64,000 nt of DNA from Escherichia coli (lineage in GTDB: Bacteria; Pseudomonadota; Gammaproteobacteria; Enterobacterales; Enterobacteriaceae), in assembly GCF_003991155.1 (NCBI RefSeq), contig NZ_CP031293.1. One strand, given 5' to 3'. The notes beneath the pieces were generated by a model. It was not told the origin of the DNA. It ran no database searches and worked only from the letters and a program-made list of their open reading frames with translations. Positions 59,686 through 63,605 of this stretch are shown here, piece by piece; the first letter of the stretch is position 1; every line of letters starts with the position of its first letter. The position numbers and the translations under genes were made by a program.

Positions 59686-60033
59686 ATGAATATTCAGTGC
59701 AAACGCGTTTATGATCCGGCTGAACAGAGCGATGGTTATCGCGTACTGGTCGACCGCCTCTGGCCGCGCGGTATCAAAAAAACCGATTTAGCCCTTGATG
59801 AGTGGGATAAAGAAATCACGCCGTCAACGGAACTGCGCAAAGCCTTTCACGGCGAAGTCGTCGATTTTGCAACCTTTCGCGAGCAATATCTTGCAGAACT
59901 GGCGCAACACGAGCAAGAAGGAAAGCGGCTGGCGAACATCGCCAAAAAACAGCCGCTGACCCTGCTCTACTCAGCAAAAAACACCACGCAGAACCATGCG
60001 CTGGTACTGGCAGACTGGCTACGTAGCTTGTGA
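59686..60033 (+). CDS. yeaO: DUF488 protein
   Basis: Start at MNIQCKRVYD, 115 aa. Confidence 0.75.
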   Translation: MNIQCKRVYDPAEQSDGYRVLVDRLWPRGIKKTDLALDEWDKEITPSTELRKAFHGEVVDFATFREQYLAELAQHEQEGKRLANIAKKQPLTLLYSAKNTTQNHALVLADWLRSL

Positions 60034-60054
60034 TTTTAGTACGCCATCCGGCGG

Positions 60055-60309
60055 TTATTTTTCACCAGCCGGATGGTCCCGTCGCCACAATGCCCATTCA
60101 TCAATCGTTTCACCGCCCGGTAATTTGCAATTGTTGCTGACCCCTTGCGCTGTCTGCACAGGAATGAGCGTCCCGCCCTTCTGCTGGCAATAGACCGACG
60201 CCGGATTTGCCATACCAATCTGTGGCGGTTTAGGTGCTTCTGGCTGAGAAGGGGTTGAACAACCAGCCAGGACCAGCAAGCAAGGCAGAACAAAACTGAT
60301 AATTTTCAT
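60055..60309 (-). CDS. yoaF: DUF333 lipoprotein
   Basis: 84-aa ORF with lipobox LAGC. Confidence 0.75.
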   Translation of the reverse strand: MKIISFVLPCLLVLAGCSTPSQPEAPKPPQIGMANPASVYCQQKGGTLIPVQTAQGVSNNCKLPGGETIDEWALWRRDHPAGEK

Positions 60310-60491
60310 TTATTGATCTCACATATTTATCCAGACTTAGAGTATCGCGGTATCGTTTTGTTTTGCAGCACTATTTTTATTACATTCACTCAAAACATAT
60401 TACGCCTTGTTTCATCTTTGTTGATGATGTTTTATCATGCCTGCAAAGATTAAATAATCAGCATTTACCCGCCGTATCCTGGAGTTGTTTC

Positions 60492-61517
60492 GTGTCAGAT
60501 CAGATTATCGCCCGCGTCTCGCAATCCCTTGCCAAAGAACAGTCACTGGAAAGTCTGGTTCGACAGCTTCTGGAGATGCTGGAAATGGTCACTGATATGG
60601 AATCAACCTACCTGACCAAAGTGGATGTCGAAGCGCGCCTGCAGCATATAATGTTTGCCCGTAACAGCCAGAAAATGCACATCCCGGAGAATTTTACCGT
60701 CTCGTGGGATTACTCGTTATGCAAACGCGCCATTGATGAAAACTGCTTTTTCAGCGATGAAGTCCCCGACCGTTGGGGCGACTGTATTGCGGCACGCAAT
60801 CTTGGCATCACCACATTTCTGAGCACGCCAATTCACTTACCGGATGGATCATTCTATGGCACGCTTTGCGCCGCCAGCAGTGAGAAGCGCCAGTGGAGTG
60901 AACGCGCGGAACAGGTTTTGCAGTTATTCGCCGGACTGATTGCACAATATATTCAAAAAGAGGCACTGGTTGAACAGCTGCGCGAAGCTAATGCTGCGCT
61001 GATTGCGCAATCGTATACCGACTCGTTAACCGGGCTACCGAATCGGCGGGCGATTTTTGAAAATCTGACGACGCTGTTTTCTCTCGCCCGGCATCTTAAC
61101 CATAAGATAATGATCGCGTTTATCGACCTGGATAACTTCAAATTAATCAACGATCGTTTTGGTCATAATAGTGGCGATCTGTTTCTCATTCAGGTTGGCG
61201 AGCGCCTTAATACGCTCCAGCAAAATGGCGAAGTTATTGGTCGTCTCGGCGGTGATGAGTTTTTGGTTGTTTCACTGAACAACGAGAATGCGGATATTTC
61301 GTCGCTGCGAGAACGTATTCAACAACAAATACGCGGAGAATATCACTTAGCTGATGTTGATTTGTATTATCCTGGTGCCAGTCTTGGCATAGTAGAAGTC
61401 GATCCTGAAACGACCGATGCAGACAGTGCCCTGCATGCTGCCGATATCGCGATGTATCAGGAGAAAAAACACAAACAGAAAACACCTTTTGTCGCGCATC
61501 CAGCGCTACATTCCTGA
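60492..61517 (+). CDS. yeaP: diguanylate cyclase (GAF-like N-terminal domain plus GGDEF)
   Basis: GTG start (MSDQIIARVSQ...), canonical RLGGDEF, 341 aa. Confidence 0.85.
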   Translation: MSDQIIARVSQSLAKEQSLESLVRQLLEMLEMVTDMESTYLTKVDVEARLQHIMFARNSQKMHIPENFTVSWDYSLCKRAIDENCFFSDEVPDRWGDCIAARNLGITTFLSTPIHLPDGSFYGTLCAASSEKRQWSERAEQVLQLFAGLIAQYIQKEALVEQLREANAALIAQSYTDSLTGLPNRRAIFENLTTLFSLARHLNHKIMIAFIDLDNFKLINDRFGHNSGDLFLIQVGERLNTLQQNGEVIGRLGGDEFLVVSLNNENADISSLRERIQQQIRGEYHLADVDLYYPGASLGIVEVDPETTDADSALHAADIAMYQEKKHKQKTPFVAHPALHS

Positions 61518-61549
61518 GGCGTATTCACATCCTTTTGATTGGTGATAAC

Positions 61550-61648
61550 ATGCGAATCGGTATTATTTTTCCGGTTGTAATCTTTATTACAGCGGTCGTA
61601 TTTTTAGCATGGTTTTTTATTGGCGGCTATGCTGCCCCGGGAGCATAA
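61550..61648 (+). CDS. yoaK: small membrane protein (32 aa) MRIGIIFPVVIFITAVVFLAWFFIGGYAAPGA
   Basis: Not in ORF track; single TM helix; directly downstream of yeaP. Confidence 0.55.
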   Translation: MRIGIIFPVVIFITAVVFLAWFFIGGYAAPGA

Positions 61649-61650
61649 AG

Positions 61651-61725
61651 ATGAAAAAAACAACGATTATTATGATGGGTGTGGCGATTATTGTCGTACT
61701 CGGCACTGAGCTGGGATGGTGGTAA
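61651..61725 (+). CDS. yoaJ: small membrane protein (24 aa) MKKTTIIMMGVAIIVVLGTELGWW
   Basis: Not in ORF track; starts 3 nt after yoaK stop. Confidence 0.55.
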   Translation: MKKTTIIMMGVAIIVVLGTELGWW

Positions 61726-61745
61726 CGTCACATCTAGAAAATAGC

Positions 61746-61775
61746 AAAGGCTGCCTGTGTGCAGCCTTTGTGCAA
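61746..61775. terminator. bidirectional hairpin (AAAGGCTGC-CTGTGT-GCAGCCTTT) between yoaJ and yeaQ
   Basis: Perfect 9-bp stem; flanking A/T-rich runs are modest. Confidence 0.5.
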
Positions 61776-61783
61776 TTTACGCG

Positions 61784-62032
61784 TTAACTTTTAATCTTTC
61801 TGTAGATAAACAGCACGACAATCGCGCCAATAACGGCAACCACGAAGCTGCCAAAATTGAAGCCATCGACTTTACCAAAGCCAAACAGCGTGCTGATCCA
61901 TCCGCCGACTACGGCACCGACTATCCCCAGCAGGATAGTCATAAAGAATCCACCACCATCTTTACCTGGCATGATCCACTTCGCCAGAATACCGGCAATA
62001 AGCCCAAAAATAATCCATGACAGAATGCCCAT
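61784..62032 (-). CDS. yeaQ: GlsB/YeaQ/YmgE-family transglycosylase-associated membrane protein
   Basis: 82-aa Gly-rich hydrophobic ORF. Confidence 0.8.
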   Translation of the reverse strand: MGILSWIIFGLIAGILAKWIMPGKDGGGFFMTILLGIVGAVVGGWISTLFGFGKVDGFNFGSFVVAVIGAIVVLFIYRKIKS

Positions 62033-62179
62033 TGTTTCCTCACTTATCTGTTTTGCATTAGCGGGTTAGTCGCTGATAAAAAGCATAGCACAACATCGGG
62101 AGGGCAAGATTTGTGACGAGCATCACGGAGGAATTTTTTGCGATGGCGCAGAAATTGCGCCATCAACGATCAGTGATAA

Positions 62180-62362
62180 TTACCAACCACAAACATCATG
62201 TTCGTTTTCCGTGTCATAAGAACGCACGGTATTCACCAGATCTTTTATCACTTCAGCCGCCACTTCTGGTACCAGCAAAGTCATCGGCGTCTCTGTTTCA
62301 TAATCGACAGAAACGCCATTGCTGTTATTGGTGACGGTCACGGTATACGTTGCTTTGCCCAT
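62180..62362 (-). CDS. yoaG: DUF1869 protein
   Basis: 60-aa ORF immediately downstream of yeaR. Confidence 0.7.
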   Translation of the reverse strand: MGKATYTVTVTNNSNGVSVDYETETPMTLLVPEVAAEVIKDLVNTVRSYDTENEHDVCGW

Positions 62363-62365
62363 GAT

Positions 62366-62725
62366 TCATTTCCCGTTATGAATGACTTTCCGTTGTTGCG
62401 CGCCTTCCATCAGGACTTCAGGAGCAACGAAGAAGTCAATGTTGAAATAAGTGTCGTCAGTCATGGCTTCAATGTTGTGCCACTTTTCTGGAGGGAACAC
62501 CGCAAACTGCCCCGCTTCGATAAGGATCACTTGATCAGGCTCTGCACTGTGTTCATCAGCGTAGCCGAGATATTTGACCGCCCCATGCATAACGGAAAGG
62601 CGTGGGTAAACCCCCGGGCGCGTTCCTTTATCAAGATGACGTTCGAATATTCCGGCAGGCGCAGTTTGTTTATTCCAGAAAGGCGTTGAGCGCGTATGAA
62701 TATAATTCTGTGGGATTTGCAGCAT
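62366..62725 (-). CDS. yeaR: DUF1971 (cupin-like) protein
   Basis: 119-aa ORF. Confidence 0.8.
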   Translation of the reverse strand: MLQIPQNYIHTRSTPFWNKQTAPAGIFERHLDKGTRPGVYPRLSVMHGAVKYLGYADEHSAEPDQVILIEAGQFAVFPPEKWHNIEAMTDDTYFNIDFFVAPEVLMEGAQQRKVIHNGK

Positions 62726-62791
62726 CCTTTTCCCTCCTTCGGTGAATGCGCTGAAAACGGTTTATTCCAGCCGTTTCAGGGTACGCCTGAT

Positions 62792-62814
62792 AATTTGCAT
62801 TTTAAATACCATTT
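62792..62814 (-). promoter_or_regulatory. NsrR-type palindrome upstream of yeaR (AATTTGCATTTTAAATACCATTT on + strand)
   Basis: Resembles the NsrR consensus AANATGCATTTnAAATGCATnTT; yeaR-yoaG is known to be NO/nitrate responsive. Confidence 0.4.
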
Positions 62815-62897
62815 ATTGGTTACTTTTTAGCACCATATCAGAGAAGAATCAGGGAGGATTACAGATGGGAAGCCCGCGACAACGCGGGCTGAAAGCA

Positions 62898-63605
<708 letters not shown>

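What the first reader, a model, noticed from the sequence alone, without database searches (positions are those of the whole stretch)
61550..61725. Two back-to-back micro-ORFs (32 and 24 codons) encoding single-helix peptides immediately after the diguanylate cyclase yeaP
Seen directly: MRIGIIFPVVIFITAVVFLAWFFIGGYAAPGA and MKKTTIIMMGVAIIVVLGTELGWW are separated by 2 nt and follow the yeaP stop by 32 nt, each preceded by a purine-rich stretch. They are missed by the 60-aa ORF cutoff. Their placement suggests co-expression with yeaP and a possible membrane partner role.
Basis: partly seen in the sequence, partly recalled or inferred. Interest (0 to 1): 0.3.

Follow-up and report, generated by a model that had tools for sequence, protein, structure and literature searches.

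The report
Known small membrane proteins YoaK, YoaJ
The two tiny genes after the diguanylate cyclase gene are real, but they are the already catalogued E. coli small membrane proteins YoaK and YoaJ, whose production and membrane location have been shown experimentally and whose function is still unknown.

Summary
It comprises a 32-codon ORF (61550-61648) and a 24-codon ORF (61651-61725), 32 nt after the dgcP (yeaP) stop and 2 nt apart. It is not new: these are yoaK and yoaJ. RefSeq annotates both in about 5,400 of 5,426 complete E. coli genomes, including K-12, and both score above the cut-off of curated NCBIfam equivalog models. Held papers report a tagged YoaK protein, an experimentally confirmed type II membrane topology for YoaJ, RseP protease assays on both, and an RNA-seq-derived yeaP-yoaK-yoaJ operon.

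Both frames are intact with invariant lengths in 24 of 26 DgcP-anchored loci from five named genera and several MAGs. dN/dS is 0.05 for yoaK and 0.15 for yoaJ, against 0.85-3.6 in shifted frames. Co-expression with dgcP is supported. A direct "membrane partner of YeaP" role is not: DgcP is predicted soluble, the peptides expose almost nothing to the cytoplasm, and each peptide occurs without the other.

Side result: YoaK-family ORFs also sit directly downstream of repressor genes in many lambdoid phages, where GenBank phage records leave them unannotated.

The parts
60492..61517 (+). dgcP (yeaP), a GAF-GGDEF diguanylate cyclase; first gene of the operon; predicted soluble
   Evidence: RefSeq annotation mapped from L001; Pfam GGDEF 4.9e-41 and GAF_2 1.7e-10; highest 19-residue hydrophobicity mean 1.12, so no membrane segment
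61541..61545 (+). Shine-Dalgarno-like GGTGA, 4 nt upstream of the yoaK ATG
   Evidence: Read from the sequence. A GGTGA/GGGGA/AGGTG motif holds the same position in Escherichia, Citrobacter, Enterobacter, Lelliottia and Pseudenterobacter while the rest of the spacer diverges
61550..61648 (+). yoaK, 32-aa single-pass small membrane protein
   Evidence: RefSeq WP_001219350.1 'YoaK family small membrane protein'; NCBIfam NF033821 69.1 bits against a cut-off of 32; dN/dS 0.05; helix over residues 3-23
61640..61643 (+). Shine-Dalgarno GGAG for yoaJ, embedded in yoaK codons Pro30-Gly31, 7 nt upstream of the yoaJ ATG
   Evidence: Read from the sequence; GGAG or GGGG conserved at this place in all genera examined
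61651..61725 (+). yoaJ, 24-aa single-pass (type II, N-in/C-out) small membrane protein
   Evidence: RefSeq WP_001386836.1 'protein YoaJ'; NCBIfam NF011343 60.4 bits against a cut-off of 54; dN/dS 0.15; topology stated as experimentally confirmed in PMC4597795
61745..61770 (.). G+C-rich hairpin between the convergent yoaJ and yeaQ genes; probable bidirectional terminator ending the dgcP-yoaK-yoaJ transcript
   Evidence: The terminator scan flags it on the - strand: 10 pairs followed by a T-rich tail. The + strand RNA folds at -21.1 kcal/mol, z = -3.2, and 0 of 200 shuffles fold as well. The U-tract on the + strand is weak, so termination in that direction is inferred
61784..62032 (-). yeaQ, convergent neighbour (GlsB/YeaQ/YmgE family membrane protein); not part of the operon

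Best explanation
These are the known E. coli genes yoaK and yoaJ. Shown here: both are conserved protein-coding genes under strong purifying selection, each encoding one hydrophobic helix. They are the last two cistrons of a dgcP-yoaK-yoaJ unit that ends at a hairpin shared with the convergent yeaQ. Each has its own Shine-Dalgarno sequence. The yoaJ site lies inside the end of yoaK, and the stop-to-start distance is always tiny: 2 nt, 0 nt, or an overlap of 1 or 4 nt. From this I infer that yoaJ translation is coupled to yoaK translation. Taken from the literature: both proteins are made, YoaJ is an integral inner-membrane protein with its N-terminus inside and C-terminus outside, both can be handled by the intramembrane protease RseP in some assays, and no function is known. 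Mechanism, inferred at roughly 40%: like the characterised small membrane proteins of this size (own knowledge: AcrZ, MgrB, MgtS, CydX), each peptide acts by helix-helix contact inside the bilayer with some larger inner-membrane protein. It would do so under the conditions in which dgcP is transcribed, rather than by binding the soluble DgcP enzyme itself.
For: Identity: RefSeq annotation at exactly these coordinates and curated equivalog HMMs above cut-off. Coding: 24 of 26 DgcP-anchored loci keep both frames at exactly 32 and 24 codons; dN/dS is 0.05 and 0.15 against 0.85-3.6 in shifted frames. Operon: 32-nt gap, no terminator-like site between dgcP and yoaK on the + strand, hairpin after yoaJ, and an RNA-seq operon call (PMC4620388). 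Coupling: gaps of 2, 0, -1 and -4 nt and a conserved SD inside yoaK. Protein and membrane evidence: tagged YoaK detected (bioRxiv 10.1101/511675); YoaJ integral to the membrane, topology confirmed, and co-precipitated with RseP (PMC4597795); RseP cleavage assays on both (PMC10470546). Single helix. Against a DgcP-specific role and for an autonomous membrane role: DgcP is predicted soluble and YoaK relatives occur without any GGDEF gene.
Against: No partner protein is known for either peptide and none was tested here. The tight and old synteny with dgcP (synonymous divergence above 1) could reflect a functional link with c-di-GMP signalling that I cannot see. A strain with a deletion spanning yeaJ to yeaV had the same growth rate and competitive fitness as its parent, and the authors inferred these genes may not matter for exponential growth in M9 glucose (PMC9769844), so no phenotype guides the mechanism. 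Translational coupling is inferred from spacing only. I could not read the primary discovery papers (Hemm 2008 and 2010, Fontaine 2011); their content is cited second-hand.
Confidence: 0.85

Rival explanations
1. One reading: YoaK and/or YoaJ are dedicated membrane partners of DgcP, for example tethering the soluble cyclase to the inner membrane or gating its activity so that c-di-GMP is made locally.
For: Same transcription unit. The order dgcP-yoaK-yoaJ is conserved in Escherichia, Citrobacter, Enterobacter, Lelliottia, Pseudenterobacter and Klebsiella despite saturated synonymous sites. A metagenomic relative (L030) also follows a GGDEF gene.
Against: DgcP has no membrane segment. By the positive-inside rule and the published YoaJ topology, the peptides expose only about 2 residues (YoaK, MR) and about 5 residues (YoaJ, MKKTT) to the cytoplasm, which leaves little surface for a soluble protein; this is an inference. 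yoaJ follows dgcP without yoaK in Kosakonia cowanii and Enterobacter sp. EA-1, and a Symbiopectobacterium DgcP relative has neither. 42 phage-borne YoaK-family genes and one plasmid-borne copy have no GGDEF neighbour. No paper in the searched library reports such an interaction.
Confidence: 0.15
2. YoaK belongs to a family whose primary role is phage-related. It would be a peptide expressed in lysogens that alters an inner-membrane function, for example blocking DNA entry by a superinfecting phage. The chromosomal dgcP-linked copy would be a relative that acts on the same host target.
For: 34 of 42 phage-borne YoaK-family ORFs lie 17-172 nt downstream of, and co-directional with, the prophage repressor gene. 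The repressors fall into at least five mutually diverged classes. The same position is seen in phages HK106, mEp234 and mEp506, between cI and PL. The phage copies are under purifying selection, dN/dS 0.13. From established knowledge, genes co-transcribed with cI, such as lambda rexAB, are expressed in the lysogen.
Against: There are no functional data at all. No PADLOC or PHROG family matches. The chromosomal copy is in a stable non-phage context in about 5,400 E. coli genomes. The position alone does not say what the peptide does.
Confidence: 0.15
3. The peptides are type I toxin-like membrane-damaging peptides kept in check by an antisense RNA.
For: They are small and very hydrophobic, like Hok, Ldr, Ibs and TisB. 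A weak promoter-like match lies antisense at 61697-61669.
Against: No Rfam family matched in 60000-63000 even at E up to 1. The antisense match is 9 of 12 positions, and the region has fewer promoter-like sites than shuffled sequence (2 against a mean of 4.1). The genes are the distal cistrons of an enzyme operon rather than a stand-alone toxin locus. Tagged versions were overproduced in the RseP studies, which report severe growth inhibition for HokB but mention none for YoaJ or YoaK in the passages read.
Confidence: 0.03
4. The ORFs are chance open frames in a 3' untranslated region.
For: Short ORFs are abundant: 77 of at least 20 aa in 4 kb.
Against: Invariant lengths, third-position variation and dN/dS of 0.05 and 0.15; curated HMM hits; published protein detection.
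Confidence: 0.01

Closest known systems
E. coli K-12 YoaK and YoaJ, small membrane proteins first reported by Hemm et al. 2008 (Mol Microbiol 70:1487), as cited in bioRxiv 10.1101/511675 and PMC4597795
   Same: They are the same genes. Every complete E. coli genome row inspected, including a K-12 MG1655 record, carries the yoaK and yoaJ annotation at this place, and the region is 98.8% identical to K-12 at the DNA level.
   Different: Nothing of substance. The window comes from a non-K-12 strain; it is 100% identical to FDAARGOS_497 and others.
Characterised single-helix small membrane protein regulators of E. coli (AcrZ, MgrB, MgtS, CydX); own knowledge plus mentions
   Same: Size of 24-50 aa, one transmembrane helix, inner-membrane location, stress- or condition-dependent expression, and often encoded next to or within operons.
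   Different: Each of those has a known larger partner (AcrB, PhoQ, MgtA, cytochrome bd). No partner is known for YoaK or YoaJ. There is no sequence relationship; the resemblance is one of kind only.
Lysogen-expressed genes placed after the repressor gene in lambdoid phages, for example lambda rexA/rexB (established knowledge)
   Same: The phage-borne YoaK-family ORFs hold the same position: co-directional with and immediately downstream of cI, upstream of PL.
   Different: A 31-34 aa peptide rather than the much larger two-protein Rex system; no homology; no exclusion phenotype demonstrated. This applies to the phage relatives, not to the chromosomal gene in the window.
Type I toxins (Hok, Ldr, Ibs, TisB)
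   Same: Small hydrophobic inner-membrane peptides. Hok peptides were tested as RseP substrates in the same screen as YoaJ and YoaK.
   Different: No antisense RNA, no toxin-locus architecture, and no toxicity mentioned for YoaJ or YoaK in the passages read.

Membership tests
YoaK family small membrane protein (NCBIfam NF033821; Pfam PF28021 in precomputed labels) | Full-length match to the curated equivalog HMM above its cut-off | tested here: met
   69.1 bits against a cut-off of 32, E = 1.8e-19, residues 1-32 of 32. The local Pfam copy gave no YoaK hit, but the precomputed label PF28021:YoaK appears on relatives.
YoaK family small membrane protein (NCBIfam NF033821; Pfam PF28021 in precomputed labels) | About 32 aa, one transmembrane helix, conserved core F-P-x3-F/I-x2-A-x5-W-F-x2-G-G-Y-A-x-P | tested here: met
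   In alignment A1, columns M1, P8, A15, W21, F22 and G26 are invariant, and G4, F7, G25, Y27, A28 and P30 are nearly invariant. Helix over residues 3-23.
Protein YoaJ (NCBIfam NF011343 / PRK14760) | Full-length match to the curated equivalog HMM above its cut-off | tested here: met
   60.4 bits against a cut-off of 54, E = 1.1e-16, residues 1-24 of 24.
Protein YoaJ (NCBIfam NF011343 / PRK14760) | Type II (N-in/C-out) integral inner-membrane topology | not testable with these tools
   Only hydrophobicity could be computed (1.95 over 19 residues). PMC4597795 states that the topology was confirmed experimentally by Fontaine et al. 2011 and shows integral membrane association of HA-MBP-YoaJ.
Validated E. 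coli small proteins (the Hemm/Storz set) | Protein product detected from the chromosomal locus | not testable with these tools
   Literature only. Chromosomally tagged YoaK was used as an immunoblot reference (bioRxiv 10.1101/511675). YoaJ is reported as up-regulated by diamide (PMC12542507 citing Hemm 2010).
dgcP-yoaK-yoaJ operon | Co-directional genes with short gaps, no intervening terminator, a terminator after the last gene, and conserved order | tested here: met
   Gaps of 32 and 2 nt; no terminator-like site between dgcP and yoaK on the + strand; hairpin after yoaJ; order conserved in 24 of 26 loci. Transcript evidence comes only from the literature (PMC4620388).
Type I toxin-antitoxin locus | Cis- or trans-encoded antisense RNA and a stand-alone toxin transcript | tested here: not met
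   No Rfam hit at E up to 1, no convincing antisense promoter, and the genes are distal cistrons of an enzyme operon.
Known anti-phage defence or phage protein families (PADLOC, PHROGs) | Match to a catalogued family | tested here: not met
   No PADLOC hit and no significant PHROG hit (best E = 0.05) for the chromosomal or phage-borne YoaK or for YoaJ.

The most novel reading that the evidence does not exclude
The YoaK family may be a mobile, lysogen-expressed peptide module. Its phage-borne members, encoded right behind the repressor gene of at least five unrelated immunity types and unannotated in the GenBank records of HK106, mEp234 and mEp506, would act on a conserved inner-membrane host protein, for example to exclude superinfecting phages. 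The chromosomal dgcP-linked YoaK in this window would then target the same host protein rather than DgcP. That would give the first functional handle on an orphan E. coli small protein.
Probability: 0.15. Interest if true: 0.45.

Novelty: already known. Interest (0 to 1): 0.1.

Why it matters
As handed over, the finding rediscovers two annotated and experimentally detected E. coli small proteins, so it adds nothing new. It does confirm that reading raw sequence can pick out true micro-genes.

What remains open is their function, which a 2022 paper still lists as unknown (PMC9769844). First, the two peptides are separable, and neither is obligatorily tied to DgcP. Second, YoaK relatives are repeatedly found behind prophage repressor genes, which suggests testing them in lysogens.

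Tried and rejected
I replaced it with a DgcP-anchored genome scan and an exhaustive phmmer search with YoaK.

A YoaJ-anchored survey was therefore not possible; only phages were searched, with no match.

3. The primary papers were not held: Hemm 2008 and 2010, Fontaine 2011, the EcoSal review and the Yadavalli & Yuan review. Their content is cited through papers that were held.

4. Rfam search of 60000-63000 at E up to 1 found nothing.

5. The promoter scan was uninformative: 2 sites against 4.1 expected. The + strand site (61524-61551) has its -10 element overlapping the yoaK ATG, so it cannot serve yoaK.

6. PHROGs and PADLOC gave no usable match.

7. Most plasmid hits turned out to be chromosomes or chromosome fragments filed as plasmids (L034, L035). 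Only the K. variicola IncFIB copy (L033) looks genuinely plasmid-borne.

8. 32 of the 74 IMG/VR hits were rejected as phage-borne. They are host dgcP-yoaK flanks at the ends of predicted prophages.

9. I looked for a citable statement on dgcP regulation. I found only that dgcP/DgcP is higher at 37 than at 23 degrees C in UPEC strain CFT073. RpoS dependence, which I recall from Sommerfeldt et al. 2009, was not verified here and is not used as evidence.

10. I did not attempt a linker-fusion AlphaFold model of DgcP with the peptides, because a single-chain workaround without paired alignments would not be interpretable.

Full report
**Observation.** The sequence and the mechanical ORF list confirm the finding exactly. 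An ATG at 61550 opens a 32-codon frame ending with TAA at 61646-61648 (MRIGIIFPVVIFITAVVFLAWFFIGGYAAPGA). Two bases later an ATG at 61651 opens a 24-codon frame ending at 61725 (MKKTTIIMMGVAIIVVLGTELGWW). The upstream GAF-GGDEF gene ends at 61517, so the spacer is 32 nt. GGTGA (61541-61545) and GGAG (61640-61643) sit at Shine-Dalgarno distance from the two start codons. Short ORFs are common here (77 of at least 20 aa in 4 kb), so the ORFs alone prove nothing.

**Identity.** A megablast of the region against 5,426 complete E. coli genomes finds it in 5,418 at 95-100% identity. The annotated features under the match are dgcP, yoaK ('YoaK family small membrane protein'), yoaJ ('protein YoaJ') and yeaQ. 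A narrower query finds the pair in 5,402 genomes at 80% coverage or more, including a K-12 MG1655 record. Both peptides match curated NCBIfam equivalog models over their whole length and above cut-off: NF033821 at 69.1 bits against 32, and NF011343 at 60.4 bits against 54. The window is therefore the E. coli nimT-yeaO-yoaF-dgcP-yoaK-yoaJ-yeaQ-yoaG-yeaR-leuE neighbourhood, and the finding is a rediscovery of two named genes.

**Independent test of coding.** I anchored on DgcP and fetched 26 orthologous loci from a collection holding one genome per species.
- 24 of the 26 loci carry both ORFs directly downstream of dgcP. They come from Escherichia (several species), Citrobacter, Enterobacter, Lelliottia, Pseudenterobacter, an unclassified Enterobacteriaceae isolate and several MAGs.
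- The lengths are always exactly 32 and 24 codons, and the ORFs are separated by 2 or 0 nt.
- Variable alignment columns fall mostly at third codon positions: yoaK 11/8/30, yoaJ 14/9/21.
- Pooled Nei-Gojobori estimates give dN/dS of 0.05 for yoaK and 0.15 for yoaJ, with synonymous sites near saturation. The same DNA read in the two shifted frames gives 0.85-3.6.

Both are therefore genes under strong purifying selection on the protein.

**Anatomy and expression.**
- The Shine-Dalgarno-like motif before yoaK is the only conserved element of an otherwise diverged spacer. The yoaJ motif lies inside yoaK codons 30-31 and is conserved.
- The stop-start junction is 2 nt in Escherichia and Citrobacter, 0 nt in Enterobacter and Lelliottia, a TAATG overlap in Klebsiella, and a 4-nt overlap in a metagenomic relative. 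This is the typical signature of translational coupling, which I infer but did not show.
- No terminator-like site lies between dgcP and yoaK on the + strand.
- An 11-bp G+C-rich hairpin at 61745-61770 separates yoaJ from the convergent yeaQ. It folds at -21.1 kcal/mol, z = -3.2.
- OperomeDB reported yeaP-yoaK-yoaJ as a three-gene operon derived from RNA-seq (PMC4620388).
- Hydrophobicity analysis and an AlphaFold2 model give one helix for YoaK, residues 3-23, pLDDT 88.7.

**Published experiments, from papers I could read.**
- YoaK is among the small proteins 'identified initially' by Hemm et al. 2008, and its chromosomally tagged form serves as an immunoblot reference (bioRxiv 10.1101/511675).
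- YoaJ is described as a small membrane protein of unknown function with type II orientation, 'confirmed experimentally (Fontaine et al., 2011)'. HA-MBP-YoaJ is integral to the membrane and co-precipitates with the protease RseP (PMC4597795).
- Both peptides are class II (assay-dependent) RseP substrates (PMC10470546).
- YoaJ is reported as induced by diamide (PMC12542507).
- A 2022 paper still lists yoaK and yoaJ as genes of unknown function. A strain carrying a yeaJ-yeaV deletion had the same growth rate and competitive fitness as its parent, and the authors inferred the genes may not be important for exponential growth in M9 glucose (PMC9769844).

**The interpretation.** Co-expression with yeaP is supported. 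The proposed role as a membrane partner of YeaP is not supported, for four reasons.
- DgcP has no hydrophobic segment; its highest 19-residue mean is 1.12.
- With the N-terminus inside, YoaK offers about two cytoplasmic residues and YoaJ about five, which is very little surface for a soluble enzyme. This is an inference.
- The components are separable. Kosakonia cowanii and Enterobacter sp. EA-1 have dgcP followed by yoaJ with no yoaK, and a Symbiopectobacterium relative has neither.
- YoaK relatives exist with no GGDEF gene nearby (next section).

The long-conserved synteny keeps the idea alive at about 15%.

**An unexpected side result.**
- An exhaustive search of 1.84 billion representative proteins found only 25 relatives of YoaK, several of which are frameshift artefacts.
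- Two of the most diverged genuine members lie in prophage immunity regions, 12-48 nt downstream of a CI-type repressor gene (HTH plus Peptidase_S24).
- tblastn finds the same ORF in phages HK106, mEp234 and mEp506, between cI and the hicAB genes and upstream of PL. The GenBank records annotate nothing there. RefSeq names the equivalent prophage ORF in E. coli PE15 'YoaK family small membrane protein'.
- A scan of IMG/VR returned 74 loci. Of these, 32 are host dgcP-yoaK flanks at the ends of predicted prophages and 42 are phage-borne.
- In 34 of the 42 phage-borne loci, the ORF is co-directional with and 17-172 nt downstream of a repressor gene. The repressors belong to at least five classes that share 30% identity or less, or cannot be aligned.
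- The phage copies are themselves under purifying selection, with dN/dS of 0.13 against 1.2-1.9 out of frame, and most are preceded by a recognisable Shine-Dalgarno-like motif.
- No yoaJ-like sequence was found in phages.
- No PHROG or PADLOC family covers the phage copies, and no paper in the library uses the term 'YoaK family'.

Genes in this position are normally expressed in the lysogen. That makes a lysogen-specific membrane function, such as superinfection exclusion, a testable guess. It is only a guess.

**Mechanism and verdict.** The best-supported account is that yoaK and yoaJ are the translationally coupled distal cistrons of the dgcP operon. Each would give a single-pass inner-membrane peptide that most likely works by helix-helix contact with a larger membrane protein, as other small membrane proteins do. 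The identity and anatomy are certain; the mechanism is inference. Rivals are a DgcP tether (0.15), a phage-type function for the YoaK family (0.15), a type I toxin (0.03) and chance (0.01).

The finding as given is already known, so interest is low. The only new material is the phage association of the YoaK family and the separability of the two peptides.

Noticed in passing
L031 2501-2599 (phage HK106, NC_019768.1 30464-30559, reverse strand); L028 3001-3105; L029 3001-3099; L036 2605-2703; 42 IMG/VR loci among L038-L075 and L107-L110: YoaK-family ORFs of 31-34 codons sit directly downstream of the repressor gene in lambdoid phages and prophages, across at least five diverged repressor classes, and are under purifying selection (dN/dS 0.13). 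They are unannotated in the GenBank records of HK106, mEp234 and mEp506, and absent from PHROGs and PADLOC.
   Followed up: yes
L023 4129-4206 (Kosakonia cowanii); L027 4124-4198 (Enterobacter sp. EA-1); L024 (Candidatus Symbiopectobacterium): In two species, yoaJ follows dgcP after a spacer of about 100 nt with no yoaK. In the Symbiopectobacterium DgcP relative neither peptide gene is present. The two peptides are therefore not an obligate pair.
   Followed up: partly
L077-L106 (IMG/VR contigs; locus positions 2501-2602): About 30 predicted Klebsiella-type prophage contigs end exactly at the stop codon of a chromosomal-type yoaK that follows a DgcP orthologue. This suggests a prophage integrated close to this locus, with prediction boundaries that swallowed host genes. 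The integration site was not examined.
   Followed up: no
P0001, P0002, P0004, P0016, P0024; L034 2600-2680 (C. freundii record): The database holds YoaK proteins with frameshifted tails, and one YoaK-YoaJ fusion of 57 aa. In the C. freundii record the A-run at the start of yoaJ is A8 instead of A7 (ATGAAAAAAAC in the window, 61651-61661), and only a 17-aa remnant is annotated. The homopolymer could be a site of sequencing error or of slippage.
   Followed up: no
L033 2501-2599 (Klebsiella variicola IncFIB conjugative plasmid NZ_CP103421.1): A YoaK-family gene on a genuine conjugative plasmid, with a strong AAGGAGG ribosome-binding site and neither a GGDEF gene nor a repressor gene next to it. 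Its sequence is of the phage-borne type.
   Followed up: partly
window 60363-60491: The mechanical ORF containing dgcP starts at a TTG at 60363 (384 aa), whereas RefSeq starts the gene at the GTG at 60492 (341 aa). The DgcP orthologues in other genera align from residue 1 of the 341-aa form, which favours the RefSeq start.
   Followed up: partly
window 61784-62032 (-), yeaQ: The convergent neighbour YeaQ (82 aa, Transgly_assoc family) gives weak sub-threshold matches to holin-like and type I toxin peptide models (Hol_Tox E = 0.005; PepG1 E = 0.015). These probably reflect shared glycine-rich membrane helices and nothing more.
   Followed up: no
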